Of a stretch of DNA of 64,000 nt, positions 41,290-64,000 are shown one piece after another (positions within the stretch are counted from its first letter, which is position 1; each line of letters opens with the position of its first letter). The position numbers and the translations under genes are program-made. Source of the DNA: an uncultured Chloroflexia bacterium. Its GTDB lineage: Bacteria > Chloroflexota > Dehalococcoidia > GIF9 > AB-539-J10. The stretch covers positions 26,153-90,152 of the forward strand of contig CAVSBM010000008.1 in the NCBI GenBank assembly GCA_963726175.1. Direction: 5' to 3'. The notes under the pieces are model-generated. The model had not been told where the DNA came from. It ran no database searches and saw only the letters and a program-made list of their open reading frames with translations.

Positions 41290-41294
41290 AGCAA

Positions 41295-43010: not shown

Positions 43011-43708
43011 CAACCTGAATGTTTTTTACGGCAAGTCCCAAGCCTTACGGGATGTTTCTTTAAAAGTCGAAGAAAAGGAAATAGTGGCTTTGGTGGGCGC
43101 TAATGGCGCCGGTAAAACGACACTGCTTAATACTATATCCGGCCTGGTACGTCCAGCTTCAGGTAGTGTGGAGTTTCTGGGCAAGAGAATAGACAGGCTA
43201 GCACCTTATAAAATTATGCAACCTGGGTATTTGCCAGATACCCGAGGGCAGAAAGCTTTTCAGCGACATGACAGTGGGGGACAACCTGGAGATGGGAGCG
43301 TATAGCTCTGCAGCCTGGAAGCGGAGGAAAGAAACGCTGGAGCGGGTCTATCAGGTTTTCCCGGTACTGAAAGAAAGACAAAAACAATCAGCTAAGAAGT
43401 TAAGCGGCGGCGAACGGCAAATGGTAGCCATAGGCCGGGGCTTGATGTCCAATCCCAGACTATGCATGTTTGATGAGCCATCGTATGGCCTGGCACCGAA
43501 ATTATTCTCAGAGGTTCTCGAGGTCATAAAGCACCTGCGTGAGCAGGGAATTACCATCTTCCTGGTTGAGCAAAACGTCCGACAGACACTTGAGACAGCC
43601 GATCGGGCCTACGTGATAGAAAACGGGCGGATTGTCTTAGAGGGAAAGGTAAAGACCTTCTGCAAAATCGAACAGGTGAAGACAGCCTATATAGGGGCTG
43701 TAGCTTAA
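42997..43708 (+). CDS. ABC transporter ATP-binding protein LivF-like (one frame break)
   Basis: ATG 42997 gives MLEVSNLNVFYGK...GANGAGKTT. The +1 frame continues LGICQIPEGRKLFSDMTVGDNLEMGAY...LSGGERQM.... The break lies near 43220. Confidence 0.8.
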
Positions 43709-49580: not shown

Positions 49581-49638
49581 CTACCGAACGGGTTAGCGGG
49601 CTGGCGCGGTAACATAAGAGCAAAAAAGAGGCTGTGCT

Positions 49639-50328
49639 ATGCCTATAATCCGCGATATCCCCATGAGACTGAAGGCCAGAGAAGTGCTACGCCGGCAGGG
49701 ATTGGGGCGAGGAGCTAAAGTCAGGCCAGAGATAAAAACTTTAATCCGGGAACTGCTCGTTAGTGTCAGCAAGGCACACCTTTTACAACCTGCTATCGCT
49801 TATGAAATCTACACTATAGCTGAGATAAACCAGCGGCAATTGTCCCTCGAGGACGATCCAGAAGTTCATAACTCGTTATTATCTTCAGTGCTAGACCAGG
49901 CAAAAGAGCTCGCCGTTGCCGTCTGCACTATTGGTCCCAGGCTGGAAGGACAGGCGTCAGATTACTTCAACCACGGGGAGCCATTGCGAGGCACGCTTCT
50001 GGACGGCATCGGCAGCGCTGCTGTGGACTCGCTAGCCGAGGAATTCTGCAGGTTTGTGGCAAATGAAGCGTCATCCCGTGGCTACGAGGTGAGCAGCCCC
50101 ATCAACCCGGGTATGCCTGGTTTACCGATTACCGCGCAGAGGCAGTTGCTTAAACTCGTGCCGGCACGGGAAATCGGAGTGAGCCTGACTTCCTCAGGAA
50201 TAATGGTCCCTCGCAAATCAGCCTCCATGGTCATGGGCATCGGACCAAAAATGACCAAGTGGACACGAGCTGAGGTCTGTGCGCGCTGCCACCTCAACAA
50301 GGCCTGTTCTTATAGAATATCGGCCTGA
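49639..50328 (+). CDS. methionine-synthase activation-domain-like protein (Met_synt_B12-like)
   Basis: 229 aa. ..SPINPGMPGLPITAQRQLLKLVPAREIGVSLTSSGIMVPRKSASMVMGIG.. parallels the MetH reactivation domain. A C-terminal CARCHLNKAC is also present. Confidence 0.6.
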   Translation: MPIIRDIPMRLKAREVLRRQGLGRGAKVRPEIKTLIRELLVSVSKAHLLQPAIAYEIYTIAEINQRQLSLEDDPEVHNSLLSSVLDQAKELAVAVCTIGPRLEGQASDYFNHGEPLRGTLLDGIGSAAVDSLAEEFCRFVANEASSRGYEVSSPINPGMPGLPITAQRQLLKLVPAREIGVSLTSSGIMVPRKSASMVMGIGPKMTKWTRAEVCARCHLNKACSYRISA

Positions 50329-50441
50329 TCGGAAAACGGAATACAGGAGCAAATATTTGACCATCGTGAATATTATGTGATAAAAAGTCTCACTCAGGTG
50401 AGTCAATGTGGATGGTGAACAGTGGGCATGGATGGTGATAA

Positions 50442-52331
50442 GTGACAACCAAAGCCTTCGCCAACAAGAAGGTGACTGCTTGCACAATTGACTTTGAGCC
50501 GGTAGGTCGCAGAGGGAGGTGTCAAAGGAACGAGTCTCTTCTGACTTGTGCTCGGCGCCTCGGTGTAGGTATCAGCAGCGTATGCGGGGGCAACGGAACA
50601 TGCCATGCATGCAGGGTGCAGGTCCTAAGTGGCACCGTCTCCAAACCAACACCTAACGAAGAAGAGACATTTGATTCACAAGAACTGAAAGAGGGGTGGC
50701 GGCTTGCCTGTCAGACTTATCCCGCGAGCGATGTGAAGTTGGTGATCCCAGCTGAGTCCATGACCACCCCACAGCGACTTCAGGTGGAGGGACTGGAGGT
50801 GAGAGTCTCCCCCGAGCCATCAGTTCGAGTCTACCGCCTGCAGCTATCTGCTCCCTCACTGGAGGACCCCCAAGCTGATGCCGACCGCCTGCTTAAGACA
50901 CTGAGCCAGCAGCACAAGCTGCGATGCGCCAAGATTGACATTGGTGCCCTGCGCACGATCTCCGGCCAACTGCGGTCGTGGAAGTGGAGAAGTCAGGCTG
51001 TAGTCCGTAATGGCGAGGTGATAGCCATTCTCCCCTCAAAAAGCCGCCGGCTGGGGCTGGCCATAGACCTGGGCACCACCAAGATTGCTGGCTACCTGGT
51101 TGACCTCACTGATGGCCGGACTTTGGCCGCCAAAGGGATAGTGAATCCTCAAATTAGCTACGGGGAAGATATCATCAGCCGTATTAACAGGGTGGTGAAG
51201 TCACCAGATGGGGGTGTACAGTTGCAGAAACTCGCGGTTGACGCCGTCAACGAGCTTTGCGCTGACCTCTGTGCTGAGGCTGGTGCCAAATCTGAACAGA
51301 TTTTGGAGGCAGTAGTCGTGGGCAATACCGCCATGCATCACCTTTTCCTTCGCCTGCCTGTAAAACAGCTTGTGCTCTCTCCTTTCGTGCCTGCCGTCAG
51401 TCGGGCATTGGAGGTCAGGGCTGGCGAATTGGGGCTGAATATTACCTCCGGGGCATACGTACACCTGCTGCCGAACATCGCCGGCTTCGTTGGTGCTGAT
51501 CATGTAGCGATGTTGCTGGCCACAGATGCCTGGCAGGCAAAAGAAACAACGGTGGCTCTGGACATCGGGACTAACACCGAGGTCTCTTTAATCTACAAGG
51601 GGAAGATAGCCACTACCTCCTGTGCCTCCGGACCTGCCTTCGAGGGTGGCCATATCAAGTACGGCATGCGGGCAGCCACAGGAGCTATTGAACGCCTGCG
51701 GCTTATCGACGATGTGATCCAGTATCAGACAATCGATGAGGCGCCGCCGGTTGGCATCTGCGGCTCTGGCATACTTGATGCACTGGCTCAGCTTTATCTG
51801 GCTAAAGTCATAGATGAAAGCGGCAGAATGATGAACAACCACCCGCGTATTCGCAATTACAAAGGACAGCACGAGTTTATATTGGTTAACAAGGAGGAGC
51901 GGAATGGGAAGCCAGCTATCACCATCACCCAGCATGACATAAGGGAATTGCAGCTGGCTAAGGCAGCCATTCGCACCGGCATCCAGGTGCTTCTGGAAAC
52001 GAGCGGCTGCGCTGAAGACGATATCAAGCAGGTGATAATTGCCGGAGCCTTTGGCACCTACATCGATATATCCAGTGCCGTGGCAATCGGCATGTTGCCG
52101 CCACTGCCTCTGAAACACTTCCGGCAGGTGGGCAATGCCGCCGGCATGGGAGCCAAGCTGGCACTGATTTCCCTTAGATCGCGGGCCCAGGCAGAGGCTA
52201 TCGCCTCCAGAGTTAGTTATATTGAACTAGCCAGCAGCCCTAACTTTCAGCCAACATTTATGCAGGCAACTTATCTGGGAAGATATCGCATTGTAGACGG
52301 CAGAAGGGAGAAATTGACTTATGCAGACTAG
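50442..52331 (+). CDS. reductive activator of corrinoid proteins (RACo; 2Fe-2S ferredoxin + ASKHA ATPase, DUF4445)
   Basis: 629 aa with a GTG start. The N-terminal plant-type ferredoxin carries CGGNGTCHACRV. The ASKHA part has LAIDLGTTKIAG, ALDIGTNTE and GICGSGILD. Confidence 0.8.
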   Translation: MTTKAFANKKVTACTIDFEPVGRRGRCQRNESLLTCARRLGVGISSVCGGNGTCHACRVQVLSGTVSKPTPNEEETFDSQELKEGWRLACQTYPASDVKLVIPAESMTTPQRLQVEGLEVRVSPEPSVRVYRLQLSAPSLEDPQADADRLLKTLSQQHKLRCAKIDIGALRTISGQLRSWKWRSQAVVRNGEVIAILPSKSRRLGLAIDLGTTKIAGYLVDLTDGRTLAAKGIVNPQISYGEDIISRINRVVKSPDGGVQLQKLAVDAVNELCADLCAEAGAKSEQILEAVVVGNTAMHHLFLRLPVKQLVLSPFVPAVSRALEVRAGELGLNITSGAYVHLLPNIAGFVGADHVAMLLATDAWQAKETTVALDIGTNTEVSLIYKGKIATTSCASGPAFEGGHIKYGMRAATGAIERLRLIDDVIQYQTIDEAPPVGICGSGILDALAQLYLAKVIDESGRMMNNHPRIRNYKGQHEFILVNKEERNGKPAITITQHDIRELQLAKAAIRTGIQVLLETSGCAEDDIKQVIIAGAFGTYIDISSAVAIGMLPPLPLKHFRQVGNAAGMGAKLALISLRSRAQAEAIASRVSYIELASSPNFQPTFMQATYLGRYRIVDGRREKLTYAD

Positions 52332-53175
52332 AGTGTCAAGTCCGAAGAAAGAAGTCATCATTGGTGATGACCAGCCCACAGTGCTTATCGGCGAGCGTAT
52401 CAATCCCACAGGCAAGAGAAAGCTAGCCGAGGCTCTTAAGGCTGGCGACCTGGAGATTGTCCGCAAGGAAGCCTTGGCTCAAGTGCAAGCCGGGGCCGAT
52501 ATTATTGATGTCAACGTGGGGGCATTCGGCGTCGACGAGGTGACCCTGCTGCCCAAAGCAGTGCAGGCAGTGATGGGCACCGTAGACGTACCCCTATGCC
52601 TTGATAGCTCTAACCCCGATGCTCTCGAGGCGGCACTCAAGGTCTATAAGGGTAAGCCGCTGGTTAACTCAGTTACCGGTGAAGAGCACTCCCTGAAGCG
52701 GATTCTACCTTTAGTCAAAAGATATGGGGCTGCCGTCATCGGTCTGGTGCAGGATGATGAAGGTATTCCCAAGGATGCTGAGCGAAGGGTGCTGATTGCC
52801 CATAAGATAGTGGAAAAGGTCGAGGCAGCAGGCATACCCCGTGAGGACTTAGTCATTGATTGCCTGGCTTTCGCGGTAGGAGCTGAACCTAGCTCTGGGG
52901 TGGCAGTTATAGAAGCCATCCGGCGGATTAAGGCCGAACTGGGGGTGAACATGACAATGGGTGCCAGCAATGTATCTTTCGGCTTGCCTGACCGCGAACT
53001 GCTCAATAACGCCTTCGTCGTCATGGCTGTTGCCGCTGGTGCCACCTGCCTCATTGTGGATGTGGCTAAGGTGCGCCCAATTATTCTAGCTGCCGACATT
53101 GTGCTCGGTCGTGACAAGCGTGCCCGACGCTATATTGAAGCCTATCGGCAGCGCCCGAAGCCGGATAGACAATAA
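52321..53175 (+). CDS. methyl-tetrahydrofolate:corrinoid methyltransferase (pterin-binding, MeTr/AcsE-like)
   Basis: 284 aa with ..IGERINPTGKRKLAEAL..GADIIDVNVG.., ..NSVTGE.. and ..MGASNVSFGLP.., as in DHPS-like pterin-binding barrels. Confidence 0.8.
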   Translation: MQTRVSSPKKEVIIGDDQPTVLIGERINPTGKRKLAEALKAGDLEIVRKEALAQVQAGADIIDVNVGAFGVDEVTLLPKAVQAVMGTVDVPLCLDSSNPDALEAALKVYKGKPLVNSVTGEEHSLKRILPLVKRYGAAVIGLVQDDEGIPKDAERRVLIAHKIVEKVEAAGIPREDLVIDCLAFAVGAEPSSGVAVIEAIRRIKAELGVNMTMGASNVSFGLPDRELLNNAFVVMAVAAGATCLIVDVAKVRPIILAADIVLGRDKRARRYIEAYRQRPKPDRQ

Positions 53176-53199: not shown

Positions 53200-55287
53200 A
53201 TGAAGAATAAAAAAATGCTCCTACCAGCCCTGCTTGCTATCGTTCTGTTCTTCAGCCTGATTCCTCCTGCTTCGGTAGCGGGAGATTCTACAATGGCACG
53301 GAACGTGGGCTCTGTTATGAGTCTAGGGCAAGCAATGCCCATGGTTGCCGCAGGCTTCACACACACGGTAGGGCTCAAGTCTGAAGGCACCGTGGTCGGT
53401 GTGGGAGCCAACTCCGACGGGCAGTGCAATGTGGGCAACTGGACGGACATCATCCAGGTCGCAGCAGGCGGCCAACACACGGTGGGGCTAAAGGCCGACG
53501 GCACCGTGGTCGCCGTGGGAAGCAACTCCGACGGGCAGTGCAATGTGGGCAACTGGACGGACATAATTCAAATCGCCGCTGGTGTCTATCACACAGTAGG
53601 GGTTAGGGCTGATGGCACTGTGGTCGCCGCGGGATGGAACGGCGGCAATCAGCTCAATGTGGGGAGTTGGACAGAGATCATCCAGGTCGCTGGAGGTTAT
53701 GGTCACACGGTAGGGCTTAAAAGCGACGGCACTGTGGTCGCCGTAGGATACAAAGGGTCTGGACAGAGCGATGTCGGCGACTGGAGAGACATCGTTCAGG
53801 TCGCTGCCAACAGCTATCACACGGTAGGGCTTAGAGCCGATGGCACAGTTGTCGCTGTGGGAGATAACTCCTCCGGGCAGTGCAATGTCGGGGAGTGGAG
53901 GGACATCACTAACGTCGCTGCAGGCTACGACCACACAGCGGGGCTCAAGGCCGACGGCACTGTGGTTGCCGTGGGAAAGAGCGACGACGGGCAATGCGAT
54001 ATCGAGGAATGGACGGACATCATCCAGGTCGCCGCAGGTGGCTGGCACACAGTCGGACTTAAGAACGATGGCACCGTGGTCGCCGCGGGAAGGAGCTACT
54101 ATGGGCAGTGCGATGTCAGCGGCTGGACGAATATCACCAAGATCGCCGGGAATGTCAAGCACACGGTGGGGCTTATGAACGATGGCACCGCGGTCGCCGT
54201 GGGATGGAATGGCTACGGGCAGTGTGATGTCGAGAGCTGGACAGACATCATCCAGTTCGCCGCAGGTTATGGTCACACGGTGGGGCTTATGAACGATGGC
54301 ACGGTGGTTGCCGTGGGAGATAACGGCTACGGGCAGTGCGATGTCGGCAACTGGACGGACATCGTCGGGGTCGCCGCAGGCTCCAGGCACACGGTGGGGC
54401 TCAAGACCGACGGCACCGTGGTCGCCGTGGGAGATAACCAGTTCGGGCAGTGCAATGTGGGCAACTGGACGGACATCGCCCAGGTCGCCGCAGGCGGTAG
54501 TCACACTGTGGGGCTTAAGGCCGACGGCACCGTGGTCGCGGCGGGGGACAACGAGTATGGCCAGTCTGCTGTGAGCGACTGGACGGGCATCACCCAGGTC
54601 GCCGCAGCGGGCTATAATACAGTCGGGTGCAAAGCCGATGGCACCGTAGTTGCCACGGGACAAGACTACTACGGGCAGTGCGATGTCGGCAGTTGGACAA
54701 ATGTCATCCAAGTCGCGGCAGGCGGCAGTCACACGGTGGGGCTTAAAGCCGACCGCACCGTGGTCACCGTGGGAAGCGATGCCGGCGGGCAGTATGCCAT
54801 CAATAGCTGGACCGACATCACCCAGGTCGCCGCAGGCGAGTTTCATACGGTGGGACGTAAGGCCGATGGCACTATGGTCGCTGCCGGCCCTGATATCGAA
54901 CTCGCCAAATGGAATCTGGGCGTTGTCGAGTATACCCTTACCGTCTCCGGCACTGCTGATGGTTCGGTAACCGCTCCTGGTGAAGGCGTGTTCACCTATA
55001 ATGCCGGGATGCTGGTGCACCTAGTCGCCAGGCCAGAGAAAGGCTACCGCCTTGTCAAGTGGGCTGGCGATGTGGACACCATCGCCAATGTCAACGCCGC
55101 CACAACCGTCATTGCCATGCACGGCGACTACGCTGTAACTGCCAACTTTGGGCTCAACTGGCCGTTAATCGCTGGGGTTATAGGGGCAGTGGTAGCTGCG
55201 GGACTGGCGATCTTTTTCTTACGTAGAAGGAGAGCCACCCGGACAGAGAGGCAAGGCCGAAGAAGAGCCGCCCGGAAAAAACGCTGA
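53200..55287 (+). CDS. secreted, membrane-anchored RCC1-like repeat protein (14 x 38-aa units) with B-repeat-like domain
   Basis: 695 aa with an N-terminal signal peptide. It has 14 units of ..HTVGLKADGTVVAVG.N..GQC.VG.WTDI.QVAAG.. (114-nt period, some stretches identical at DNA level). These are followed by a YTLTVSGTADGSV...GDYAVTANFG domain, a TM helix and a basic tail (RRRRATRTERQGRRRAARKKR). Confidence 0.8.
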   Translation: MKNKKMLLPALLAIVLFFSLIPPASVAGDSTMARNVGSVMSLGQAMPMVAAGFTHTVGLKSEGTVVGVGANSDGQCNVGNWTDIIQVAAGGQHTVGLKADGTVVAVGSNSDGQCNVGNWTDIIQIAAGVYHTVGVRADGTVVAAGWNGGNQLNVGSWTEIIQVAGGYGHTVGLKSDGTVVAVGYKGSGQSDVGDWRDIVQVAANSYHTVGLRADGTVVAVGDNSSGQCNVGEWRDITNVAAGYDHTAGLKADGTVVAVGKSDDGQCDIEEWTDIIQVAAGGWHTVGLKNDGTVVAAGRSYYGQCDVSGWTNITKIAGNVKHTVGLMNDGTAVAVGWNGYGQCDVESWTDIIQFAAGYGHTVGLMNDGTVVAVGDNGYGQCDVGNWTDIVGVAAGSRHTVGLKTDGTVVAVGDNQFGQCNVGNWTDIAQVAAGGSHTVGLKADGTVVAAGDNEYGQSAVSDWTGITQVAAAGYNTVGCKADGTVVATGQDYYGQCDVGSWTNVIQVAAGGSHTVGLKADRTVVTVGSDAGGQYAINSWTDITQVAAGEFHTVGRKADGTMVAAGPDIELAKWNLGVVEYTLTVSGTADGSVTAPGEGVFTYNAGMLVHLVARPEKGYRLVKWAGDVDTIANVNAATTVIAMHGDYAVTANFGLNWPLIAGVIGAVVAAGLAIFFLRRRRATRTERQGRRRAARKKR

Positions 55288-55534: not shown

Positions 55535-56290
55535 TTGTTTGATTTGACAGGCAAGGTTGCTGTAGTGGTTGGTGGTGCTGGCGGCATCGGTCGTGCACAA
55601 GCTCTGGCGCTCGCGGATGCTGGTGCTGACGTCATCGTGGCTAGCCGTAAACTTGAACATCTCGAGCCGGTAGCCAAAGAGATACAAGCTCGGGGTAGAA
55701 AGTCACTGGCTGTTCCTGTCGAGGTTACTGAAGAGAAATCAGTAGCGGCTATGGTCGATAGTGTCGTGAAGAAATTCCCACACATTGATATTCTGGTAAA
55801 CGCTCATGGTCTGGCGATTCGCAAGCCTGCCGATGCCTTTCCCATTGATGAGTGGCAGAAGGTTATGGATATTAACACCCGCGGCACCTTCCTCACCTGC
55901 CAGGCGGTTGGGCGGGTGATGATCAAGCAGCGCAGTGGTAAGATCATAAACCTATCGTCGGTGAGAGGCAGATACGGCCTCCCAGCAGACTACGCGGCCT
56001 ATTGTGCCAGTAAAGGGGCTGTAGATAGCCTGACACGAACGCTGGCCTGCGAGTGGGCCAAGTACAACGTACTGGTGAACGCACTCGCGCCCACTATGGT
56101 GGAGACCGAACTTACCCGTACTGCCTTGGCCAACCCTCAGTTTGCCCAGCAGATGAAGTCCCGTATTCCGCTCGGCCGTTGGGCAATGCCGGAGGATATT
56201 GTGGGGGCTACCATATTCTTTGCCTCAAAAGCGTCAGACTTCATCACCGGGCAAATCCTGTACATCGACGGTGGCGTGACTACCTGGTAG
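55535..56290 (+). CDS. SDR-family oxidoreductase (candidate phloroglucinol reductase)
   Basis: 251 aa with VAVVVGGAGGIGRA and a catalytic YCASK. It is the first gene of a five-gene co-directional operon. The start codon is uncertain (TTG 55535, or ATC 55526 closer to the AGGAGG). Confidence 0.8.
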   Translation: MFDLTGKVAVVVGGAGGIGRAQALALADAGADVIVASRKLEHLEPVAKEIQARGRKSLAVPVEVTEEKSVAAMVDSVVKKFPHIDILVNAHGLAIRKPADAFPIDEWQKVMDINTRGTFLTCQAVGRVMIKQRSGKIINLSSVRGRYGLPADYAAYCASKGAVDSLTRTLACEWAKYNVLVNALAPTMVETELTRTALANPQFAQQMKSRIPLGRWAMPEDIVGATIFFASKASDFITGQILYIDGGVTTW

Positions 56291-56335
56291 TAGAATACTT
56301 TACAGCTAGAATCTAATTTTAGGGAGGTACATATT

Positions 56336-57277
56336 ATGGGTAAAAAAGTATTTGTTTCTCTGTCGCATCCCTTCGGTGCGGAAATTCCCCGCTGGCCTTA
56401 TTTTGACAAGCCGATAATCGATAATACGCACACCATGGCAAAAGGCGGCGTTCTGACGCAGAAGATCACCTGCACTATGCACACCGGTACGCATTGCGAT
56501 GCTCCCCGTCACGTTATGGAAATCGAGTTCGACGGCAAAAGAGCCCGTTACACGCACGAAATGCCTATTGATGCCTACACTGGCGATGCCGTTTGCCTTC
56601 CCATCGAGATCGAGCGCTGGGGACTGATCCTCCCGAAGCATCTTGAGGCTGCCTGCGAAAAAGTGGGTATCAAGCCGAGCGAACTGAAAGGCATGGTCGT
56701 TTGCCTGAATAGTGGCATGCATCGCAAGTTTGACGACTCCAAGGAGTACTATCATTATTCCTGCGGTACCGGCGTCGAAGCCGGCAGATGGTTTTTAAAG
56801 CACAAGGTAAAGTGCGTTGCTCAGGATATGCAGGCGTCGGACCATCCTCTCCACACCGCTATGGGCAACAACGGCATGACCCGTATGAACCTCCTCGGCG
56901 CTTCCGGCAAGCCTATCACCGAAGAGTACATTGAGCAGTTCGGTGAAGAAGCCTATGCCGAATTTGATAAGTTTACCTACATCAAAGTGCATGGCAAAGA
57001 AGCTTATGACAAGAAGTTCGGCGACCTGGAAGCCATCGGCTGCTGGGGCACCTGGGAGCCCTGCCATAAGATACTGCTGGGTCACGGCATAGTCGGCATT
57101 GAAAACCTTGGCGGAGATCTGGATAAGGTTTCCGGTAAGCGCTTCAGGTTCTACTGCTTCCCGATCCGCTGGTACATGGGCGATGGCTCCATGGCTCACT
57201 GCGTTGCAGAAATCGACGAAGACGATCTGAATGATGTGCCCGATAGGACCTACACCTACGCCGGCGTCCTCGCTTAA
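56336..57277 (+). CDS. cyclase-family metal hydrolase (kynurenine formamidase/isatin hydrolase-like; candidate dihydrophloroglucinol cyclohydrolase)
   Basis: 313 aa with the HxGTHxDxPxH motif present as MHTGTHCDAPRH. Confidence 0.7.
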   Translation: MGKKVFVSLSHPFGAEIPRWPYFDKPIIDNTHTMAKGGVLTQKITCTMHTGTHCDAPRHVMEIEFDGKRARYTHEMPIDAYTGDAVCLPIEIERWGLILPKHLEAACEKVGIKPSELKGMVVCLNSGMHRKFDDSKEYYHYSCGTGVEAGRWFLKHKVKCVAQDMQASDHPLHTAMGNNGMTRMNLLGASGKPITEEYIEQFGEEAYAEFDKFTYIKVHGKEAYDKKFGDLEAIGCWGTWEPCHKILLGHGIVGIENLGGDLDKVSGKRFRFYCFPIRWYMGDGSMAHCVAEIDEDDLNDVPDRTYTYAGVLA

Positions 57278-57329
57278 GTATATAGCTGTTTGTTTACCCC
57301 GATAATTCAAAACTAAATATGGAGGAGAT

Positions 57330-57662
57330 ATGAAAAAGATTAATCTAGCTCAGGTCAAGCCCTATGAGGCTGCCGGTCATTTCAAGATGGTTGCGCTCAG
57401 GTTAAGTGGCAAAGAGGAGACCGGAGCTGAGAAGTTCTGGGTAGGCATGTCCCATTTCCTTCCCGGTGGTGGGGCGGAATTCGGGGCCACGCCAGCGGAG
57501 AAATACTATTTCGTTCTGGACGGAGAAATCACCGTTAAGACCAAGAAGGAAGAGATTACCCTCGGGCGATGGGACTCAGTCTACATCGGTCCCAACGAAG
57601 GTAGAGAAATCATCAACAAGAGCAATAAACCCGTGAGTATGCTGGTGGTCATTAACTATTAA
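57330..57662 (+). CDS. cupin-domain protein
   Basis: 110 aa with a small beta-barrel pattern (..YYFVLDGEITV......GRWDSVYIGPNEG..). Confidence 0.55.
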   Translation: MKKINLAQVKPYEAAGHFKMVALRLSGKEETGAEKFWVGMSHFLPGGGAEFGATPAEKYYFVLDGEITVKTKKEEITLGRWDSVYIGPNEGREIINKSNKPVSMLVVINY

Positions 57663-57723
57663 TAGTCTTCTCTGTTGCGAGCAATTGTCACGATTCCTGC
57701 CTGAGTAGGAAAGAGGGCAGCTT

Positions 57724-58671
57724 ATGAAAGCAGAAGAAATTAATCACGTTGGCCTGCTGGGAGCCGGCATGGTGGGGCATGGACTGGCACTGCATTTTGC
57801 GAAGGCAGGTTATCGGGTATCTTTATACTCCCGGACTCAGCAAACGCTGGACAAAGCCGTTGAAAATATTAAGTCAAATCTCCACGTCCTACTGCAAGGA
57901 CAAGCTAGCGTAGAGGATGAAGTAAAGAAGATCATAAGCAGGATAAAAACAACAAGAAACATAGACGAAGCAGTGGCGAAGGCCCCAATTATTATCGAAT
58001 CAGTGGCTGAAGACCTAAAGGTCAAACAAGATCTATTTAAGGAACTAGATCAGATCTGCCCCAGGGATGTTATTCTGGCCACAAATACATCGGTAATCAG
58101 CATAACCGCGATAGCATCTAAAGCCAAGAACCGGGATAGAATCATTGGAACACACTTCTGGTTTCCGCCATACCTTATCCCTCTGGTTGAGGTGGTAAAG
58201 GGAAAGGACACCTCTAGTGACACAATGGAAACAACCTATCAATTCATGAAAAAGGCTGGGAAACACCCCATCAAATGCTTGAAGGACGTCCCAGGATTCG
58301 TCGCTAACCGTCTCCAGCACGCCCTGTGGCGGGAAGCCATCTCAATCGTAGAAAAAGGGATTGCCGATCCAGCTACTGTCGACGATGCTATCAAGCAGAG
58401 TTTTGGCATCCGGATTCCGGTTCTGGGGCCAATTGAGAATGCCGATATGGTGGGGCTAGATTTGATTCTGGCCATCCACAATACAGTTTTGCAGGATTTG
58501 GAGGCTTCTCCCAACCCCTCACCGCTCTTGAAGGACAAGGTAAGTAAAGGTGAGCTTGGGTTCAAATCTGGAAAAGGCTTCTATGACAGCTGGACACCAG
58601 AAAGGATGAAGCGCACTAGAGAAAGGCTTATGAAGCATCTCATTGATTACTCCCGCAAGCAACAAACTTGA
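57724..58671 (+). CDS. 3-hydroxyacyl-CoA dehydrogenase-family NAD(P) oxidoreductase (candidate 3-hydroxy-5-oxohexanoate dehydrogenase)
   Basis: 315 aa with a Rossmann N-terminus (VGLLGAGMVGHGLA) and 3HCDH N- and C-domain-like regions. Confidence 0.75.
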   Translation: MKAEEINHVGLLGAGMVGHGLALHFAKAGYRVSLYSRTQQTLDKAVENIKSNLHVLLQGQASVEDEVKKIISRIKTTRNIDEAVAKAPIIIESVAEDLKVKQDLFKELDQICPRDVILATNTSVISITAIASKAKNRDRIIGTHFWFPPYLIPLVEVVKGKDTSSDTMETTYQFMKKAGKHPIKCLKDVPGFVANRLQHALWREAISIVEKGIADPATVDDAIKQSFGIRIPVLGPIENADMVGLDLILAIHNTVLQDLEASPNPSPLLKDKVSKGELGFKSGKGFYDSWTPERMKRTRERLMKHLIDYSRKQQT

Positions 58672-58710
58672 GACACTGTGTGATATCGATAACCGGCAAC
58701 GCAAGGAGGA

Positions 58711-59655
58711 ATGCACGAGATGGAAAAACTAATCATAACCGCGGCTCTAACCGGCAATATCACCCTGCCGACTCAGACACCTTATCTACCGCTTACACCA
58801 CAACAAATCGCCGATGAGGCGGTAAGGTGTGCCAATGCCGGTGCAGCTTCGGTACACATCCATGGCCGGGACCCCCAGACCGGCAAGCCGACTACTGACC
58901 CAGCGGTCTACCGGGAGATTGCCACTCTCATCAAGGCAAGAAGCAACGTCATTGTCTGCGTGACCACCGGCGGCACCATGGAAATGACCGCGGCGGAAAG
59001 GATAAGGGTTGTCCCGGCTCTTAAGCCAGAGCTGGCTACGTTTAACATGGGATCGATTAACTTCTCAATCCACCCCATAGCCGAGCGATATAAGGACTCG
59101 GACTACAAGTATCCCTGGGAGAAGGATTTTGCCGCCGGAACCATAAATTTCATCTTCCGTAATACCTTTGGTGATATCGAGCACTTCTGTAAGACCATGA
59201 CTGAGAATAATACAAAACCCGAACACGAAGCATATGACGTAGGGCACCTGTACAATATACAGTATTGTATTAGGAGAAAGCTTGTGCAATTCCCCATCTG
59301 GGTTCAATTCGTGACTGGAATTTTGGGAGCGATCGGCGCTGATCTGGAGAATATCATGTTCATGAAACAGACAGCTGACCGATTGTTCGGGCCGGAAAAC
59401 TACAAGTGGTCGGTAATTGGTGCGGGCTATCCCGCGGAGTTCAACCTGGCGACGCTGGCGATAATGATGGGTGGGCATGTTCGCGTTGGCTTTGAAGACA
59501 ATATTTTTGTGCGCAAAGGAGTATTGGCCAAGAGCAACGCTGAACTGGTAGAGAAGGCAGTCAGAATCGCCCGGGAGCTAGAACGGGAAATAGCTACGCC
59601 GGACGAAGCAAGAGCGATCCTTGGCCTGAAAGGGAAGGACAAGGTCAGCTATTAG
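58711..59655 (+). CDS. beta-keto acid cleavage enzyme (BKACE/DUF849) family protein (candidate triacetate acetoacetate-lyase)
   Basis: 314 aa. ..LIITAALTGN......ASVHIHGRD.. is the typical BKACE N-terminus. The start may be ATG 58720. Confidence 0.75.
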   Translation: MHEMEKLIITAALTGNITLPTQTPYLPLTPQQIADEAVRCANAGAASVHIHGRDPQTGKPTTDPAVYREIATLIKARSNVIVCVTTGGTMEMTAAERIRVVPALKPELATFNMGSINFSIHPIAERYKDSDYKYPWEKDFAAGTINFIFRNTFGDIEHFCKTMTENNTKPEHEAYDVGHLYNIQYCIRRKLVQFPIWVQFVTGILGAIGADLENIMFMKQTADRLFGPENYKWSVIGAGYPAEFNLATLAIMMGGHVRVGFEDNIFVRKGVLAKSNAELVEKAVRIARELEREIATPDEARAILGLKGKDKVSY

Positions 59656-59697: not shown

Positions 59698-60324
59698 CTA
59701 TTTTGTTTCTTGAGCCCGGCGATCTTCTGTTGGCGACTGGTAGGTGGCTACTTGACGGCTTTTGCAATCTGTAAGCTTGGACACGTTTGAAGGGGATTGC
59801 GTCAAATCAGCGACGACCACAAATTCGTACTCAGGGAAATGCCTCTGAAGTGCTTCTTTTAACGAACTCCTTACTACTATGAGCACGCTAACTGGTGAGG
59901 CTAGGGCTAGTTCGACTGCTGGCATAAGCCCCTTGCCACACAGTTCCAACGGGCCGACCTCATCGATGACCACCAAATCGCATCTACTTTCAACTGCCCT
60001 TTTGATAGCACCGCAGGCAAACGCAATCGCACGACTGCTGATGGTATAGTCGCCAACCACTTCACCTCCCTTGAAACGTCCAAGGCAGGACAGCCGGGCG
60101 AAAGGGACCTCTTTGCCGGTGAGGAGGTCAATTACGTTGAAGCCAATTCGTTGTCTTTGCTTCTCAATCGCTGGGGAAAGGACTCCGCCAACGCTGGAAC
60201 CGCATTGTCGCCGCCGGTCAATGTATTCTCTGCACCAACTGGTCTTGCCCGACCTTGGTTCACCTACGACGAGCAGTCTCACTAAAGATCTGATGCGAAG
60301 GCAACTGCCGCGCCAATCCAGCAA
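59698..60324 (-). CDS. P-loop NTPase, DUF2478/THEP1-like
   Basis: 208 aa. Walker A GEPRSGKTS and Walker B DLVVIDEVGPLE. Confidence 0.6.
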   Translation of the reverse strand: MLDWRGSCLRIRSLVRLLVVGEPRSGKTSWCREYIDRRRQCGSSVGGVLSPAIEKQRQRIGFNVIDLLTGKEVPFARLSCLGRFKGGEVVGDYTISSRAIAFACGAIKRAVESRCDLVVIDEVGPLELCGKGLMPAVELALASPVSVLIVVRSSLKEALQRHFPEYEFVVVADLTQSPSNVSKLTDCKSRQVATYQSPTEDRRAQETK

Positions 60325-60345: not shown

Positions 60346-60991
60346 CTAGCATAGAACAAACTTGGGCTTCACAGTCATGAGTTGCCAGAAGTTGGGTCGG
60401 AGCTTTGCGCCCACCAGGTGTCCTAGGAGCAGCAGACAAGTACCTACAATAGCCAGAGCTGTGCCATCGGTAAGTGCCGCAGTGACCCTCTCAGTAGGTC
60501 CCCAGGATGCCCAGTTGCCCATACCTATGGTCGATGCCAGGATGGCGTAAAGGATGGCGCTGAGGTATCCTGCTGAGATACCAACAGCAATGCGCGTCTT
60601 GATACTGCTTTCGAAACCTTTAAACAACAGGCTGACTACCAGGGTGAAGGCCAGTGCTTCCAGAAGGATTGCCGAGGCAGGATTGACCACGAAGGGAGAA
60701 AAGATAGGTTGGCCATAAATCACGGCGCTCAGCGGCTTGAACAGGGCGGCGATGACTCCGAGCCAGAATACGAGTCTTAGGCCGTCGATAGATGACAACA
60801 AATGTTGCCATGAGTGCCATGCCGATGCCCCCTGTAATTGCCCCTTTGTAGGCGAAGTGGACAAGGTGTAAAGCCCCGCCCAGAGTAGCTTCCACAAGGC
60901 CCCAGATTGAGCCAAAGACCAGAATCCCGACGATTACACGCAAAATAGTCCCCGACCCCGAGAGTGTTTTGATTTTGTTAGATACCTGCAT
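60346..60991 (-). CDS. hypothetical polytopic membrane protein (one frame break)
   Basis: ORFs 60620-61006 (from MQVSNK...) and 60346-60915 overlap in different frames and read colinearly as one membrane protein of about 215 aa. The break lies near 60790. Confidence 0.45.
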
Positions 60992-61136
60992 ACTTTGCCT
61001 CCCCATTCATAAGCTTGCCTGAGTTTGCACTTAACTATATCAAACAGGGATTTTTTGGTCAATATGATGTTGACTGTTCCGAGTTCACCGTATTAGAATA
61101 ATAAACTGAGTCAGACGAAAAAGGAGGTGGAAGAAT

Positions 61137-63729
61137 ATGGCTCGTTCTGCGAAAGAAGAACAGGTTTTTACCAATTGTACCGTCGGCGGACCACTTTTTG
61201 TGTACGTGAAGAACGGGAAAATAACACGCGTTGAACCCTTGGAGCTCAGTCCTGATGATGCTGAATCCTGGGTCATAAGAGCACGGGGAAGGAAATTTTC
61301 CCCTGCGAGAATGGCGAACGTTGCACAATATGCCTTGGCTGAGAGGTCAAGGATATATTCCCCCGATAGGCTTCTTTATCCCCTTAAGAGAGTTGATTTC
61401 AATCCGCAAGGAGATAGAAAAGCTGAAAACAGGGGTACGTCAGGCTATAAGCGAATCAGCTGGGACGAAGCCTTAGATATTCTGGCCAAAGAAATAGAGC
61501 GTGTCCACAAGACTTATGGGCCTGGCGCAGTTCTCACCACGCCTTCTTCACATCACAATTGGGGCAATATAGGTTACAGGCACAGCAGCCTCTTAAGGTT
61601 CATGGGAATCCTGAATGCTACCTACGTTGACCACAATCCGGATAGCTGGGAGGGGTGGCACTGGGGGGCAATGCATATGTGGGGGTTTGCCTGGAGGCTG
61701 GGCATTTCATCGCAATACGATCTCCTGGAAGATGCCTTGAAACACGCCGAGATGGTGGTCTACTGGTCTTCTGACCCTGAAAGCACCTCCGGAATCTATG
61801 GAGGGCAGGAGTCAAATCAGTGGCGTTCCTGGCTGAAGGAGCTGGGGGTGAAAATGATTGTTGTAGACCAGCATTATAATTCCACCGCTGTGAATTTTGC
61901 TGACAAATGGTTTGCTCCCAGGCCGGGAACTGACACAGCGATGGCAGCAGCTATCGCCTATGTCTGGCTTACGGAAGGCACATACGATAAGGAATATATT
62001 AAGGAACATGCACACGGATTTGAAAAGTGGAAAGGCTATATACTTGGCGAAGAAGATGGTTTTGCCAAGACGAGTGAATGGGCTGAAAAAGAAACAGGAG
62101 TACCAGCACGAGAGATTAGGGCCCTGGCAAGAGAGTGGGCCAGGCGTAAGACTATGCTGGCCTCTGGGAGCGCACTTGGGGGAGGAGCCTGCAGGACGGC
62201 CTACGGGACAGAATGGGCAAGGTATATGGTTATGCTGGCAGCCATGCAGGGGATGGGCAAGCCAGGGAGCAACATATGGACAACAAACTACGGTGCCCCC
62301 CAGAATTTTGACTTCTTCTTTCCGGGATATGCTGAAGGCGGCATATCCGGCGACCCACTAAACACTGCTGCCCACTTCCAAATGGTCTCACGAGGAATAA
62401 CAAAACATCCGATAAGGTCTGAAGTGAATGATCCTGGGGGACAGCATATACCCAGGATTCTACTTCCTGAGTGCATTTTGAATCCGCCTCAGGAGTGGCG
62501 AGGGAAGGGCTTTTGTGGCGCTTCGCCTGAAACTCAGTTCAAGAAATACAAGTATCCTGAAGATGGATACTCTGAGGTGAAGATGTTCTGGCGGTATGGC
62601 GGTTCCTATATTGGCACCATGAACAACACAAACAGGTGGGTCAGGATGTACCGGAGTCCCAAGCTTGAGTTTGTGGTTAACCAGTCAATCTGGATGGAAG
62701 GTGAAGCGCAACTTGCTGACTTGATACTTCCAGCCTGCACCAATTTTGAGAGATGGGACATCGGCGAGTGGGCTAACTGCTCGGGTTACATTCCTCATTG
62801 CCATTATACAGTCAACCATCGGACAATAGTGCTACAAAAGAAATGTATTGAACCACTGGGAGAATCTAAGGCAGATTACGACATATTCGCTGCGGTAGCT
62901 GAGAGGCTTGGCTTCTACGAGCAAGTTCACCGAAGGGGGCTTAACAGAGCTGGACTGGGTAAAGAAGCTGTTCCAATTAACTGACCTGCCGAAGTACATT
63001 TCGTGGGAAGAGTTTGAGAAGAAAGGCTACTTCGTTGTCCCACTGCCAAAACCTTATAAGTCCACACCAAGTTTGAGATGGTTTGCCGAGGGACGGAAGA
63101 ACGATACACCAGACTGGGGACCTGTGGGTGGAGGGGTAGCAAGCATACCAGATGCCGAAGGCAACCTGGCTACCCAGACGGGTAAAATAGAGTTTGAAGC
63201 AGAAAGCCTCAAACGGTTCGACCCCGATGACTGGGAAAGGCCACCCGTGGCCAAGTATATCCCTTCCTGGGAAGGTCATCACACAAAGGAGCTTTACTCC
63301 AAATACCCCCTTCAGCTCATTTCTCCTCACCCGAGGTATAGTTTTCACACCATGTATGATGGTAAAGATAGCTGGATAAATGAAATACCGGAACACAGGG
63401 TTAAAAAGGAAGATGGACGGTACTACTGGGTGATTCGGATAAATTCGAGAGACGCCGAGAAAAGGGGCATAAGAGATGGCGATTTGGTCAACGTCTACAA
63501 CGACAGAGGAGTTGTCATATGTGCAGCGCAGGTTACAGAGCGTGTCCCATACGGTATGGTTCATTCGTACGAGTCCTGCGCTGTTTATGACCCAATCGGA
63601 GAGCCTGGCGAATCGCCAGATAGAGGTGGATGTATCAACCTGCTGACACCGCATCGTTTTATATCTAAGAATGCCTGTGGCATGGCTCCGAATTCCTGTC
63701 TGGTTGAAATTGAAAAGAGGAGGGAATAA
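61137..63729 (+). CDS. molybdopterin oxidoreductase large subunit, pyrogallol-phloroglucinol transhydroxylase (AthL)-like (one frame break)
   Basis: ORFs 61137-62984 and 62908-63729 join with a +1 break near 62925 (..LGFYEQ/FTEGGLTELDW..). It has no twin-arginine signal and no N-terminal Cys cluster. Blocks such as GGPLFVYVKNGKITRVEP, HNPDSWEGWHWGAMHMWGF, ILPACTNFERWDIGEWANCSGYIP and HSYESCAVYDPIGEPGESPDRGGCINLLTP match my recollection of the Pelobacter enzyme. Confidence 0.7.
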
Positions 63730-63731
63730 AT

Positions 63732-64000
63732 ATGGCTAAGTGGGGTATGGTAATAGATATAACAAAGTGCAATGCTTGCTATAGCTGTTTCATAGCCTGC
63801 AAAGACGAGTACTGGGATAACGATTATCCTCCCTATTCCGCAGGCTCAGCCCAGGCATGGACAATTCTGGATGGACCTCGTGAAGAAAGAGCGTGGAGCG
63901 TGTCCTTGGGTGAAGGTCGCATACATACCTGTACTTTGTATGCAGTGCGACAACGCGCCCTGTGTTAAGGCTGCCAGGAACCGCGCGGCATATAAAAGGC
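63732..64000 (+). CDS. 4Fe-4S ferredoxin-type beta subunit of the molybdoenzyme (partial; one frame break)
   Basis: MAKWGMVIDITKCNACYSCFIACKDE.... After about 63845 the +1 frame continues AQPRHGQFWMDLVKKERGACPWVKVAYIPVLCMQCDNAPCVKAA.... The 3' end lies outside the window. Confidence 0.7.

What the first reader, a model, noticed from the sequence alone, without database searches (positions are those of the whole stretch)
61137..64000. Cytoplasmic DMSO-reductase-family enzyme resembling pyrogallol-phloroglucinol transhydroxylase
**Seen in the sequence.**
- A large subunit of about 860 aa (one +1 frame break near 62925) has neither a Tat signal nor the N-terminal CxxCxxxC FS0 cluster.
- A DmsB-like poly-ferredoxin subunit follows 2 nt later.
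- Long blocks (HNPDSWEGWHWG.MHMWGF, ILPACTNFERWDI.EWANCSGYIP, HSYESCAVYDP.G..G.S.DRGGCIN.LTP) agree with what I remember of the Pelobacter acidigallici AthL sequence.

**Inference.** This is a trihydroxybenzene transhydroxylase feeding the phloroglucinol operon 1.5 kb upstream. Few members of this enzyme class have been characterised, and I do not know of one described in Chloroflexota.
Basis: partly seen in the sequence, partly recalled or inferred. Interest (0 to 1): 0.72.

Follow-up and report, generated by a model that had tools for sequence, protein, structure and literature searches.

The report
Pyrogallol transhydroxylase genes in Dehalococcoidia
These are the two subunit genes of a molybdenum enzyme that most likely turns the plant phenol pyrogallol into phloroglucinol, sitting beside the genes that break phloroglucinol down; this enzyme was already reported in genomes of this bacterial group, and the apparent gene breaks look like sequence errors.

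Summary
Window 61137-63729 encodes an 863-aa DMSO-reductase-family protein with one extra base at about 62922. A ferredoxin-type small subunit starts 2 nt later at 63732, has one extra base at about 63842, and runs off the window.

The large subunit matches the crystallised Pelobacter acidigallici pyrogallol hydroxytransferase over its full length (1143 bits, 59% identity); the next PDB family scores 252 bits. The Mo-ligand Ser175 and seven other pocket residues are conserved. It has no Tat motif and no FS0 cysteine cluster.

The four-enzyme phloroglucinol pathway lies at 55535-59655. This linkage is conserved in related Dehalococcoidia genomes.

The frame breaks are most likely sequence errors:
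- At least 13 such breaks occur across the window, including two in essential secY.
- All ten close relatives compared at DNA level have intact genes.
- dN/dS is about 0.08, and 0.11 downstream of the break.

The novelty claim does not hold. AthLS genes were reported in Chloroflexi genomes in 2013 and 2016, and near-identical proteins are in public databases.

Two features are unexplained: this subclade has lost Trp354, and relatives carry a divergent second enzyme pair just downstream.

Verdict: a well-supported new member of a known kind, of low to moderate interest.

The parts
61070..61099 (+). Sigma-70-like promoter candidate (TTGACT, 18 nt, TAGAAT) in the divergent intergenic region ahead of the alpha gene
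   Evidence: 10 of 12 matches. The number of such sites in the region is not above the shuffle expectation, so this is only a positional hint.
61122..61127 (+). Shine-Dalgarno sequence AGGAGG, 9 nt before the alpha ATG
   Evidence: Read directly.
61137..62924 (+). Transhydroxylase large (alpha, Mo-bisMGD) subunit, N-terminal 596 codons in frame 0. Contains the PF21423 AhtL-like first domain, His144, Tyr152, Arg153, Asp174, Ser175, Trp176, Tyr404 and Tyr560 equivalents.
62922..62922 (+). Single extra base (GAG[C]AAG) that causes the +1 frame break in alpha. It is absent from all ten close relatives compared at DNA level.
   Evidence: The aligners place it at 62922-62925.
62926..63729 (+). Alpha subunit C-terminal 267 codons in frame +1, including the PF01568 MGD-binding domain; stop at 63727-63729
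63732..64000 (+). Transhydroxylase small (beta, poly-[4Fe-4S]) subunit, first ~89 codons only. One extra base at ~63842-63845 breaks the frame, and the window end truncates the gene. Contains CNACYSCFIAC and CMQCDNAPC cysteine motifs.
   Evidence: 75 bits to 4v4c_B. The intact 278-aa beta of relative L002 scores 212 bits to 4v4c_B over residues 2-265.
55535..56290 (+). SDR, candidate phloroglucinol reductase (PGR)
   Evidence: family only. A homologue lies within the fetched flanks of 24 of the 84 loci held (80 of them AthL-homologue loci). The assignment rests on cluster context (PMC10470551).
56336..57277 (+). Cyclase-family protein (PF04199), candidate dihydrophloroglucinol cyclohydrolase (DPGC)
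   Evidence: PMC10470551.
57330..57662 (+). Small cupin, conserved inside these clusters, role unknown
   Evidence: present in 19 of the 84 loci.
57724..58671 (+). 3-hydroxyacyl-CoA-dehydrogenase-like protein, candidate (S)-3-hydroxy-5-oxohexanoate dehydrogenase (TfD)
   Evidence: PMC10470551.
58711..59655 (+). BKACE enzyme, candidate triacetate acetoacetate-lyase (TAL)
   Evidence: PF05853, 355 bits. NF053538 '3,5-dioxohexanoate:acetyl-CoA acetone transferase', 411 bits against a cut-off of 430.
59698..60324 (-). NTPase_1/DUF2478 protein between the two gene sets, conserved in relatives
60346..61006 (-). Conserved hypothetical protein with no Pfam match (240 aa and intact in L002). In the window it is broken by two 1-nt insertions at ~60357 and ~60775.

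Best explanation
The locus encodes the alpha (863 aa, Mo-bis-MGD) and beta (three-[4Fe-4S]-type) subunits of a cytoplasmic pyrogallol-phloroglucinol transhydroxylase-type enzyme (EC 1.97.1.2 type) in a Dehalococcoidia (Chloroflexota) bacterium.

By analogy with the P. acidigallici enzyme, it moves a hydroxyl group between phenols at a Ser-ligated molybdenum centre. 1,2,3,5-tetrahydroxybenzene serves as co-substrate, and the net effect is isomerisation of pyrogallol (1,2,3-trihydroxybenzene) to phloroglucinol (1,3,5-trihydroxybenzene) without net redox change.

The upstream genes then consume phloroglucinol in four steps:
- NADPH-dependent reduction (SDR, 55535-56290).
- Hydrolytic ring opening (cyclase-family DPGC, 56336-57277).
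- Oxidation to triacetate (57724-58671).
- Cleavage with acetyl-CoA (BKACE, 58711-59655).

The two frame breaks are single-base insertion errors of the assembly, not biology.

Shown here: homology, residue conservation, gene linkage, clade placement, and the window-wide spread of frame breaks. Inferred: substrate, reaction, co-substrate requirement and expression.
For: Homology and architecture:
- full-length match to 4v4c_A (1143 bits); the next family, DMSO reductase, scores 252 bits.
- 59.1% identity to PgtL. His144, Tyr152, Arg153, Asp174, Ser175, Trp176, Tyr404 and Tyr560 are all conserved.
- Pfam PF21423 (AhtL-like first domain), PF00384 and PF01568.
- the beta subunit best matches BthL. 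The intact beta of a relative has the C-terminal CarboxypepD_reg-like beta-sandwich domain.

Phylogeny:
- in an NJ tree the window protein lies in a Dehalococcoidia/Desulfobacteraceae/Bathyarchaeia clade (94% bootstrap).
- That clade is sister (70%) to the clade holding PgtL, Eubacterium/Lachnospiraceae and Actinobacteria sequences.
- Proteobacterial 990-aa homologues and TorA fall outside.

Gene linkage:
- all four phloroglucinol-pathway families lie upstream.
- synteny is conserved at 88-93% nucleotide identity in L002, L004, L006, L009 and L068. The linkage also appears in Actinobacteria and Bathyarchaeia loci.
- PMC10470551 gives the biochemistry of the four downstream enzymes.

Frame breaks as errors:
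- both are 1-nt insertions absent from all ten close relatives.
- the best-matching loci encode uninterrupted homologues of about 860 codons (2589 nt in the closest relatives).
- secY (3 pieces), livH, livM, livG, livF, AOR (3 pieces) and an acyl-CoA dehydrogenase are also split.
- dN/dS is 0.077 against L002 overall, and 0.106 downstream of the break.
Against: - No enzyme of this subclade has been characterised. It is only 59% identical to the P. acidigallici protein, whereas Firmicutes homologues are 74-75% identical to it.
- The window protein and its relatives of 93% identity or more lack the Trp of the GGLGGWGGACR loop (PgtL Trp354), which most other homologues keep. This could alter the pocket.
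- The sister relationship to the PgtL clade has only 70% bootstrap support in a simple NJ tree.
- No bona fide resorcinol hydroxylase sequence could be included in the tree.
- Only 89 residues of the beta subunit are in the window.
- The frame breaks cannot be proven to be errors without reads.
Confidence: 0.72

Rival explanations
1. It is the same enzyme family but has a different substrate. This subclade would transfer or add hydroxyl groups on another polyphenol (for example hydroxyhydroquinone, as in Pelobacter massiliensis, or a resorcinol- or gallate-type compound), still feeding phloroglucinol into the adjacent pathway. It might divide the work with the divergent second alpha'-beta' pair found just downstream in relatives.
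For: - Identity to PgtL is 59%, and the protein sits in a separate clade.
- The subclade has specifically lost Trp354.
- All close relatives with enough downstream sequence carry a convergent alpha'-beta' pair. Alpha' has a changed pocket: Y152A, R153C, Y404Q.
- Hug et al. 2013 also report two operons per genome (PMC3971608).
Against: - All eight pocket and catalytic residues checked are identical to PgtL, including Arg153, which is replaced in the proteobacterial clade.
- Linkage to the phloroglucinol pathway fits the pyrogallol reaction just as well.
Confidence: 0.18
2. The genes are real pseudogenes. The alpha and beta genes were each inactivated by a 1-nt insertion, and the transhydroxylase is dead in this organism.
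For: The given sequence has two independent frame breaks in two adjacent genes of one operon, and two more in the neighbouring minus-strand gene.
Against: - At least 13 frame breaks are spread over the 64-kb window, including two in essential secY and two in AOR.
- dN/dS is 0.08 overall and 0.11 downstream of the break.
- No in-frame stops or other decay appear once the single base is removed.
- All relatives are intact.
Confidence: 0.06
3. It is an S-/N-oxide reductase (TMAO, DMSO or biotin sulfoxide reductase), as JGI's automatic names for many homologues say, or some other DMSOR clade such as acetylene hydratase or thiosulfate/polysulfide reductase.
For: - JGI names several homologues 'trimethylamine-N-oxide reductase (cytochrome c)'.
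- The best NCBIfam hit is the bisC family.
Against: - NCBIfam scores are far below the cut-offs: 353 against 1017 for bisC_fam, and 269 against 909 for TorA.
- PDB scores are 252 bits for DMSO reductase, 86 for thiosulfate reductase and 60 for acetylene hydratase, against 1143 for AthL.
- There is no Tat signal.
- The AhtL-specific first domain PF21423 is present.
- TorA is the outgroup in the tree.
Confidence: 0.02

Closest known systems
[quoted passage not shown]
   Same: - Full-length collinear alpha subunit (59% identity), with the same three Pfam domains.
- No FS0 cluster and no Tat signal.
- Ser175 Mo ligand, plus His144, Tyr152, Arg153, Asp174, Trp176, Tyr404 and Tyr560.
- The beta gene follows directly and best matches BthL. 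The intact beta of relatives has the extra C-terminal beta-sandwich domain.
   Different: - It belongs to a separate clade (Dehalococcoidia, Desulfobacteraceae, Bathyarchaeia).
- A one-residue deletion removes Trp354.
- It is uncharacterised biochemically.
- The window copy carries two single-base insertions, and its beta gene is truncated by the window end.
AthLS operons reported in Chloroflexi genomes RBG-2 and RBG-1351 (Hug et al. 2013, PMC3971608) and Dehalococcoidia single cell DEH-C11 (Wasmund et al. 2016, PMC4959651)
   Same: - Same phylum and class, and the same predicted enzyme.
- Two operons per genome, as in the relatives L001-L009 here.
- MAGs of the same RBG series carry a 97%-identical copy (Chloroflexi bacterium RBG_13_51_36, L004) and a 71%-identical copy (RBG_16_50_9, P0049).
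   Different: Those papers predate the 2023 elucidation of the phloroglucinol pathway. They did not describe the physical linkage of AthLS to PGR, DPGC, TfD and TAL that is seen here.
Anaerobic phloroglucinol degradation cluster of Clostridium scatologenes (PGR, DPGC, TfD, TAL; Zhou et al. 2023, PMC10470551)
   Same: The same four protein families occur in one co-directional block at 55535-59655.
   Different: - The window cluster has an extra conserved cupin gene and an adjacent transhydroxylase.
- Chloroflexi and Dehalococcoidia are not mentioned in that paper's main text.
Resorcinol hydroxylase RhLS of Azoarcus anaerobius, part of the RhL/PgtL family (Wells et al. 2023, PMC10100899)
   Same: The same Ser-coordinating, FS0-less DMSOR subfamily acting on phenols, with alpha and beta subunits.
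   Different: - No RhL reference sequence was available for direct comparison.
- Proteobacterial ~990-aa homologues are only possible RhL-like enzymes. They are 50-53% identical, carry an N-terminal extension, replace Arg153 and sit in aerobic aromatic-degradation contexts. They fall outside the window's clade.

Membership tests
Pyrogallol-phloroglucinol transhydroxylase (AthL/BthL) | Full-length sequence homology of the large subunit to crystallised AthL, clearly above other DMSOR families | tested here: met
   1143 bits, residues 11-860 against 7-866; the next family scores 252 bits; 59.1% identity.
Pyrogallol-phloroglucinol transhydroxylase (AthL/BthL) | AhtL-type first domain in place of the FS0 [4Fe-4S] domain; no N-terminal Cys cluster | tested here: met
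   PF21423, 76.9 bits at residues 18-71. The first 70 residues contain only one Cys.
Pyrogallol-phloroglucinol transhydroxylase (AthL/BthL) | Cytoplasmic location: no twin-arginine signal peptide | tested here: met
   The N-terminus MARSAKEEQVFTN has no RR motif or hydrophobic h-region. No signal-peptide predictor was available.
Pyrogallol-phloroglucinol transhydroxylase (AthL/BthL) | Serine ligand to Mo (Ser175) | tested here: met
   Ser is conserved in the DHNPDSWEGW block. PMC10100899 lists Ser as the ligand for PgtL.
Pyrogallol-phloroglucinol transhydroxylase (AthL/BthL) | Substrate and catalytic pocket residues His144, Asp174, Tyr404 (plus Tyr152, Arg153, Trp176, Tyr560). Their roles are recalled from Messerschmidt et al. 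2004, which could not be read here. | tested here: met
   all are identical in the window protein. Arg153 is replaced in the proteobacterial and L080/L081 clades. Tyr152, Arg153 and Tyr404 are replaced in the alpha' paralogue.
Pyrogallol-phloroglucinol transhydroxylase (AthL/BthL) | Trp354 of the GGLGGWGGACR loop (a possible pocket residue; its role is recalled only uncertainly) | tested here: not met
   the window reads SGSALG-GGACR. The Trp is deleted in the window and in P0001-P0003, L002 and L004, and in a few more distant hits. Trp is present in 85 of the 120 best homologues (W, F, M or H in 99). Its significance is unknown, and it is not an established defining feature.
Pyrogallol-phloroglucinol transhydroxylase (AthL/BthL) | BthL-type small subunit encoded directly downstream, with three [4Fe-4S] motifs and a C-terminal beta-sandwich domain | tested here: inconclusive
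   Only ~89 residues are in the window. They match BthL best (75 bits) and carry the first Cys motifs. The intact 278-aa beta of relative L002 matches BthL over residues 2-265 (212 bits) and has Fer4_11 plus CarboxypepD_reg domains.
Pyrogallol-phloroglucinol transhydroxylase (AthL/BthL) | Phylogenetic placement with PgtL rather than other DMSOR clades | tested here: met
   sister to the PgtL-containing clade (70% bootstrap). The whole group is separated from the proteobacterial homologues, the alpha' paralogue and TorA (100%). The tree is a simple NJ tree, and no RhL reference was included.
Pyrogallol-phloroglucinol transhydroxylase (AthL/BthL) | Genomic link to phloroglucinol catabolism | tested here: met
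Pyrogallol-phloroglucinol transhydroxylase (AthL/BthL) | Uninterrupted reading frames | tested here: not met
   One extra base in alpha (62922) and one in beta (~63842). Judged to be artefacts, because secY and at least six other genes in the window are also split.
Pyrogallol-phloroglucinol transhydroxylase (AthL/BthL) | Tetrahydroxybenzene-dependent conversion of pyrogallol to phloroglucinol; Mo-bisMGD content | not testable with these tools
   Needs biochemistry.
Resorcinol hydroxylase (RhLS) | Closer relationship to A. anaerobius RhL than to PgtL | not testable with these tools
   No RhL sequence could be obtained: the papers are not held and no database hit carries that name. Indirect evidence: proteobacterial homologues lie outside the window's clade.
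S-/N-oxide reductases (TorA, DorA, BisC, DmsA) | Score above the curated NCBIfam cut-offs | tested here: not met
   bisC_fam 353 against 1017; dmsA_ynfE 332 against 778; TorA 269 against 909.

The most novel reading that the evidence does not exclude
The Dehalococcoidia subclade that lacks Trp354, together with the conserved convergent alpha'-beta' paralogue (pocket changes Y152A, R153C, Y404Q) and the aryl-O-demethylase-like genes at 48243-53175, forms a dedicated island. This island would funnel several methoxylated or hydroxylated lignin- and tannin-derived aromatics into phloroglucinol. The two transhydroxylase-like enzymes would have distinct, so far undescribed substrate specificities, for example hydroxyhydroquinone or tetrahydroxybenzene interconversions.
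Probability: 0.2. Interest if true: 0.5.

Novelty: new member of a known kind. Interest (0 to 1): 0.25.

Why it matters
The locus gives a clean, syntenic example that uncultured sediment and soil Dehalococcoidia encode a contiguous route from pyrogallol, a tannin and gallate breakdown product, through phloroglucinol. By analogy with the characterised C. scatologenes pathway, the end products would be acetoacetate and acetoacetyl-CoA.

This supports earlier genome-based proposals that these organisms ferment plant polyphenols in anoxic sediments. It also links the 2013 and 2016 AthLS predictions to the phloroglucinol pathway worked out in 2023.

It does not open a new question. The enzyme family, its presence in Chloroflexi and the downstream pathway are all already known. 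The practical value is correct annotation: many database homologues are mislabelled as TMAO reductase. It is also a warning that this window carries frequent single-base indel errors.

Tried and rejected
- Exact-sequence look-up of a window protein (BKACE) to find the source contig returned nothing.
- Messerschmidt et al. 2004 (PMC511022) and Darley et al. 2007 (PMC1913315) are not held. Two full-text searches for the residue names and the mechanism found nothing usable. The roles of the active-site residues therefore rest on my memory of the 2004 structure paper.
- PDB searches with the SDR and the cyclase found no entry named phloroglucinol reductase or DPGC. Those assignments rest on family plus cluster context.
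- A second database search with a proteobacterial 992-aa homologue, meant to find a protein named resorcinol hydroxylase, returned only generic names. The RhL alternative could be tested only indirectly.
- Biopython bootstrapping timed out and was replaced with a numpy NJ bootstrap.
- An ORF-adjacency and codon-usage heuristic for counting frame breaks across the window could not separate true operon overlaps from frameshifts. It was not used, and the count of at least 13 rests on Pfam-supported or DNA-comparison-supported splits only.
- Programmed ribosomal frameshifting was considered and rejected. There is no slippery sequence at TACGAGCAAGTTCAC, the extra base is absent in all relatives, and similar breaks occur in unrelated genes.
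- Structure prediction was not run.
Full report
**1. What is in the sequence**

ORF listing and translation show a 615-aa ORF at 61137-62984 and an overlapping 273-aa ORF at 62908-63729 in the +1 frame. Joined at about 62922-62926, they give an 863-aa protein.

The stop codon is at 63727-63729. A second gene starts at 63732, two bases later. It reads MAKWGMVIDITKCNACYSCFIACKDEYWDNDYPPYSA in frame 0. It continues as QPRHGQFWMDLVKKERGACPWVKVAYIPVLCMQCDNAPCVKAA... in frame +1 until the window ends.

An AGGAGG sits 9 nt before the alpha ATG. The N-terminus has no twin-arginine motif and only one cysteine, so there is no Tat signal and no FS0 cluster.

**2. What the proteins are**

Large subunit:
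- Against all PDB sequences, it matches the pyrogallol hydroxytransferase large subunit of Pelobacter acidigallici (4v4c_A) over its whole length (1143 bits).
- The next families score far lower: DMSO/TMAO reductases about 250 bits, thiosulfate reductase 86, acetylene hydratase 60.
- Pfam finds the AhtL-like first domain PF21423 plus PF00384 and PF01568.
- No NCBIfam S-/N-oxide reductase model comes near its cut-off.

Active site:
- In a MAFFT alignment the protein is 59.1% identical to PgtL.
- It keeps His144, Tyr152, Arg153, Asp174, Ser175 (the Mo ligand), Trp176, Tyr404 and Tyr560.
- The catalytic roles of these residues are from my memory of Messerschmidt et al. 2004, which the library does not hold. 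The Ser ligand is confirmed by PMC10100899.

Small subunit:
- The 89-residue fragment best matches the BthL small subunit (75 bits).
- The intact 278-aa orthologue in the closest relative matches BthL over residues 2-265 (212 bits).
- That orthologue has the Fer4_11 and CarboxypepD_reg-like domains.

**3. Organism and relatives**

A scan of one genome per GTDB species found 163 loci encoding relatives. The best ones are all Dehalococcoidia or Dehalococcoidales MAGs:
- L002, 98.6% amino-acid identity.
- L004, Chloroflexi bacterium RBG_13_51_36, 96.9%.
- Several more at 94-97%.

Every one of these has an uninterrupted 863-codon gene. The region 55.5-64 kb of the window is syntenic with L002, L004, L006, L009 and L068 at 88-93% nucleotide identity.

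**4. Phylogenetic placement**

An NJ tree (843 columns, 200 bootstraps, TorA as outgroup) gives the following picture:
- The window protein lies in a clade with other Dehalococcoidia, a Desulfobacteraceae MAG and Bathyarchaeia (94%).
- This clade is sister (70%) to a clade (98%) containing P. acidigallici PgtL, Clostridiales, Eubacterium and Lachnospiraceae sequences (74-75% identical to PgtL) and an Actinobacteria, Planctomycetota and Binatia group.
- Outside both lie proteobacterial homologues of about 990 aa found on Burkholderia and Salipiger megaplasmids. These sit in aerobic aromatic-degradation contexts with VOC dioxygenases and FAH-family hydrolases.
- Two further MAG sequences (L080, L081) also lie outside. 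In all four of these sequences Arg153 is replaced by Trp or Tyr.

These proteobacterial proteins may represent resorcinol-hydroxylase-like enzymes. I could not obtain a named RhL sequence to prove that.

**5. Genomic context**

Upstream, co-directional genes encode:
- an SDR (55535-56290);
- a cyclase-family protein (56336-57277);
- a small cupin (57330-57662);
- a 3-hydroxyacyl-CoA-dehydrogenase-like protein (57724-58671);
- a BKACE enzyme (58711-59655; NF053538 at 411 bits against a cut-off of 430).

Between them and the alpha gene lie two minus-strand genes: an NTPase_1/DUF2478 protein and a conserved hypothetical protein.

A tblastn of the window's pathway proteins against all 84 loci held (80 of them AthL-homologue loci) finds these genes near AthL homologues throughout the Dehalococcoidia clade. 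They also occur in several Actinobacteria and a Bathyarchaeia locus.

**6. The frame breaks**

DNA alignment to ten relatives shows that each break is a single inserted base present only in the window:
- GAG[C]AAG at 62922.
- One extra base in GCAGGCT at about 63842.

Two more window-specific 1-nt insertions break the neighbouring minus-strand gene (about 60357 and 60775).

The same kind of damage occurs across the window:
- secY is in three frames (10987-12296).
- livH, livM, livG and livF (40455-43708) are each split.
- An aldehyde:ferredoxin oxidoreductase is in three pieces (44067-45871).
- An acyl-CoA dehydrogenase is split (36838-38107).

That makes at least 13 breaks in 64 kb, including two in an essential gene.

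With the one base removed, the alpha gene differs from L002 by 44 synonymous and 13 non-synonymous changes. dN/dS is 0.077 overall and 0.106 in the part downstream of the break. The reading frame was therefore under purifying selection until essentially the present.

The most economical reading is indel error in the assembly. Operon-specific decay is unlikely, and programmed frameshifting has no support.

**7. How it most likely works (inferred)**

By analogy with the P. acidigallici enzyme, the alpha-beta heterodimer binds pyrogallol at the Ser-ligated Mo-bisMGD centre. It transfers a hydroxyl group from the co-substrate 1,2,3,5-tetrahydroxybenzene. This yields phloroglucinol and regenerates the co-substrate, with no net redox change.

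Phloroglucinol is then reduced, ring-opened, oxidised and thiolytically split by the upstream enzymes, as in PMC10470551.

The homology, residues and linkage are shown here. The substrate and the chemistry are inferred.

**8. Comparison with what is known, and novelty**

- Hug et al. 2013 reported two AthLS complexes each in the Chloroflexi genomes RBG-2 and RBG-1351, and proposed pyrogallol fermentation (PMC3971608).
- Wasmund et al. 2016 reported three copies in Dehalococcoidia cell DEH-C11 (PMC4959651).
- NCBI already names a Chloroflexi homologue (P0049, 71% identity) 'pyrogallol hydroxytransferase large subunit'.

The claim that none has been described in Chloroflexota is therefore wrong at the genomic level. 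No Chloroflexi enzyme has been characterised biochemically, as far as I could find.

The 2023 phloroglucinol paper does not mention Chloroflexi. The explicit AthLS-plus-full-pathway linkage in Dehalococcoidia is thus a modest addition. I rate this a new member of a known kind.

**9. Loose ends**

- The window protein and its relatives of 93% identity or more lack the Trp of the conserved GGLGGWGGACR loop (PgtL Trp354). Trp is kept in 85 of the 120 best homologues, and W, F, M or H in 99.
- Every close relative with enough sequence carries a convergent second alpha'-beta' pair directly after beta. Alpha' is 893 aa in L002 (874 aa in L001) and about 41% identical to alpha, with Y152A, R153C and Y404Q. 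The window ends before this point.
- These two features leave room for a different or split substrate range, which I keep as the main rival (0.18).

**10. Verdict**

The frame breaks are most likely artefacts. Interest is 0.25.

Noticed in passing
window 10987-12296, 36838-38107, 40455-43708, 44067-45871, 60346-61006: Single-base frame breaks are pervasive. secY is in three frames. livH, livM, livG, livF, an aldehyde:ferredoxin oxidoreductase (three pieces), an acyl-CoA dehydrogenase and a conserved hypothetical gene are all split. Where relatives allow a check, the breaks are 1-nt insertions in the window. This points to an indel-prone assembly, so any 'pseudogene' call in this window needs read-level confirmation.
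   Followed up: partly
window 48243-53175: Four genes lie directly upstream of the phloroglucinol genes: a URO-D-family methyltransferase, a 229-aa ORF (only a weak Met_synt_B12 hit), a RACo/AcsV-like corrinoid reductive activase and a methyl-THF:corrinoid methyltransferase. Together they look like an aryl-O-demethylase system that could feed methoxylated aromatics into the same route. No clear corrinoid-binding protein was identified.
   Followed up: partly
window 53200-55287: A 695-aa protein with 12 RCC1 repeats and an InlB-B-repeat-like domain sits between the demethylase-like and phloroglucinol genes. Its region has 56-57% GC, against about 49% elsewhere.
   Followed up: no
window 57330-57662; homologues in 19 of the 84 loci held: A 110-aa cupin is conserved inside phloroglucinol clusters next to AthL homologues in Dehalococcoidia, Actinobacteria and Bathyarchaeia. 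It is not one of the four enzymes of the published pathway, and its role is unknown.
   Followed up: partly
L002 7481-11007 (minus strand); likewise L001, L003-L009, L068; also near AthL homologues in Actinobacteria loci L037, L054, L055, L065, L073: A second, convergent transhydroxylase-like pair (alpha' 893 aa in L002, about 41% identical to alpha; beta' 281 aa) follows the beta gene in all close relatives. Alpha' keeps His144, Asp174, Ser175, Trp176 and Tyr560 but has Y152A, R153C and Y404Q, which suggests a different substrate. The window ends before this position.
   Followed up: partly
window ~62180-62200 (alpha residues ~342-352, SGSALGGGACR): A one-residue deletion removes the Trp of the conserved GGLGGWGGACR loop (PgtL Trp354). 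It is shared by the window and its relatives of 93% identity or more, and by a few more distant hits. Relatives at 76-80% identity keep the Trp.
   Followed up: partly
L001, L003, L005, L008 against L002, L004, L007 (beta genes); window 63870-63920: Among genomes whose alpha subunits are 96-99% identical, the adjacent beta subunit comes in two variants only about 69% identical to each other. This suggests recombination or replacement of the small-subunit gene. The window carries the L002/L004 type.
   Followed up: no
P0009; L021, L022, L024, L027: Bathyarchaeia and Nitrosopumilales MAGs carry AthL homologues 65-80% identical to the Dehalococcoidia protein. This points to cross-domain gene transfer or to binning errors.
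   Followed up: no
and one search hit tables: Many public homologues of this family are auto-named 'trimethylamine-N-oxide reductase (cytochrome c)' or 'S/N-oxide reductase-like'. This is a systematic misannotation of the RhL/PgtL family.
   Followed up: no
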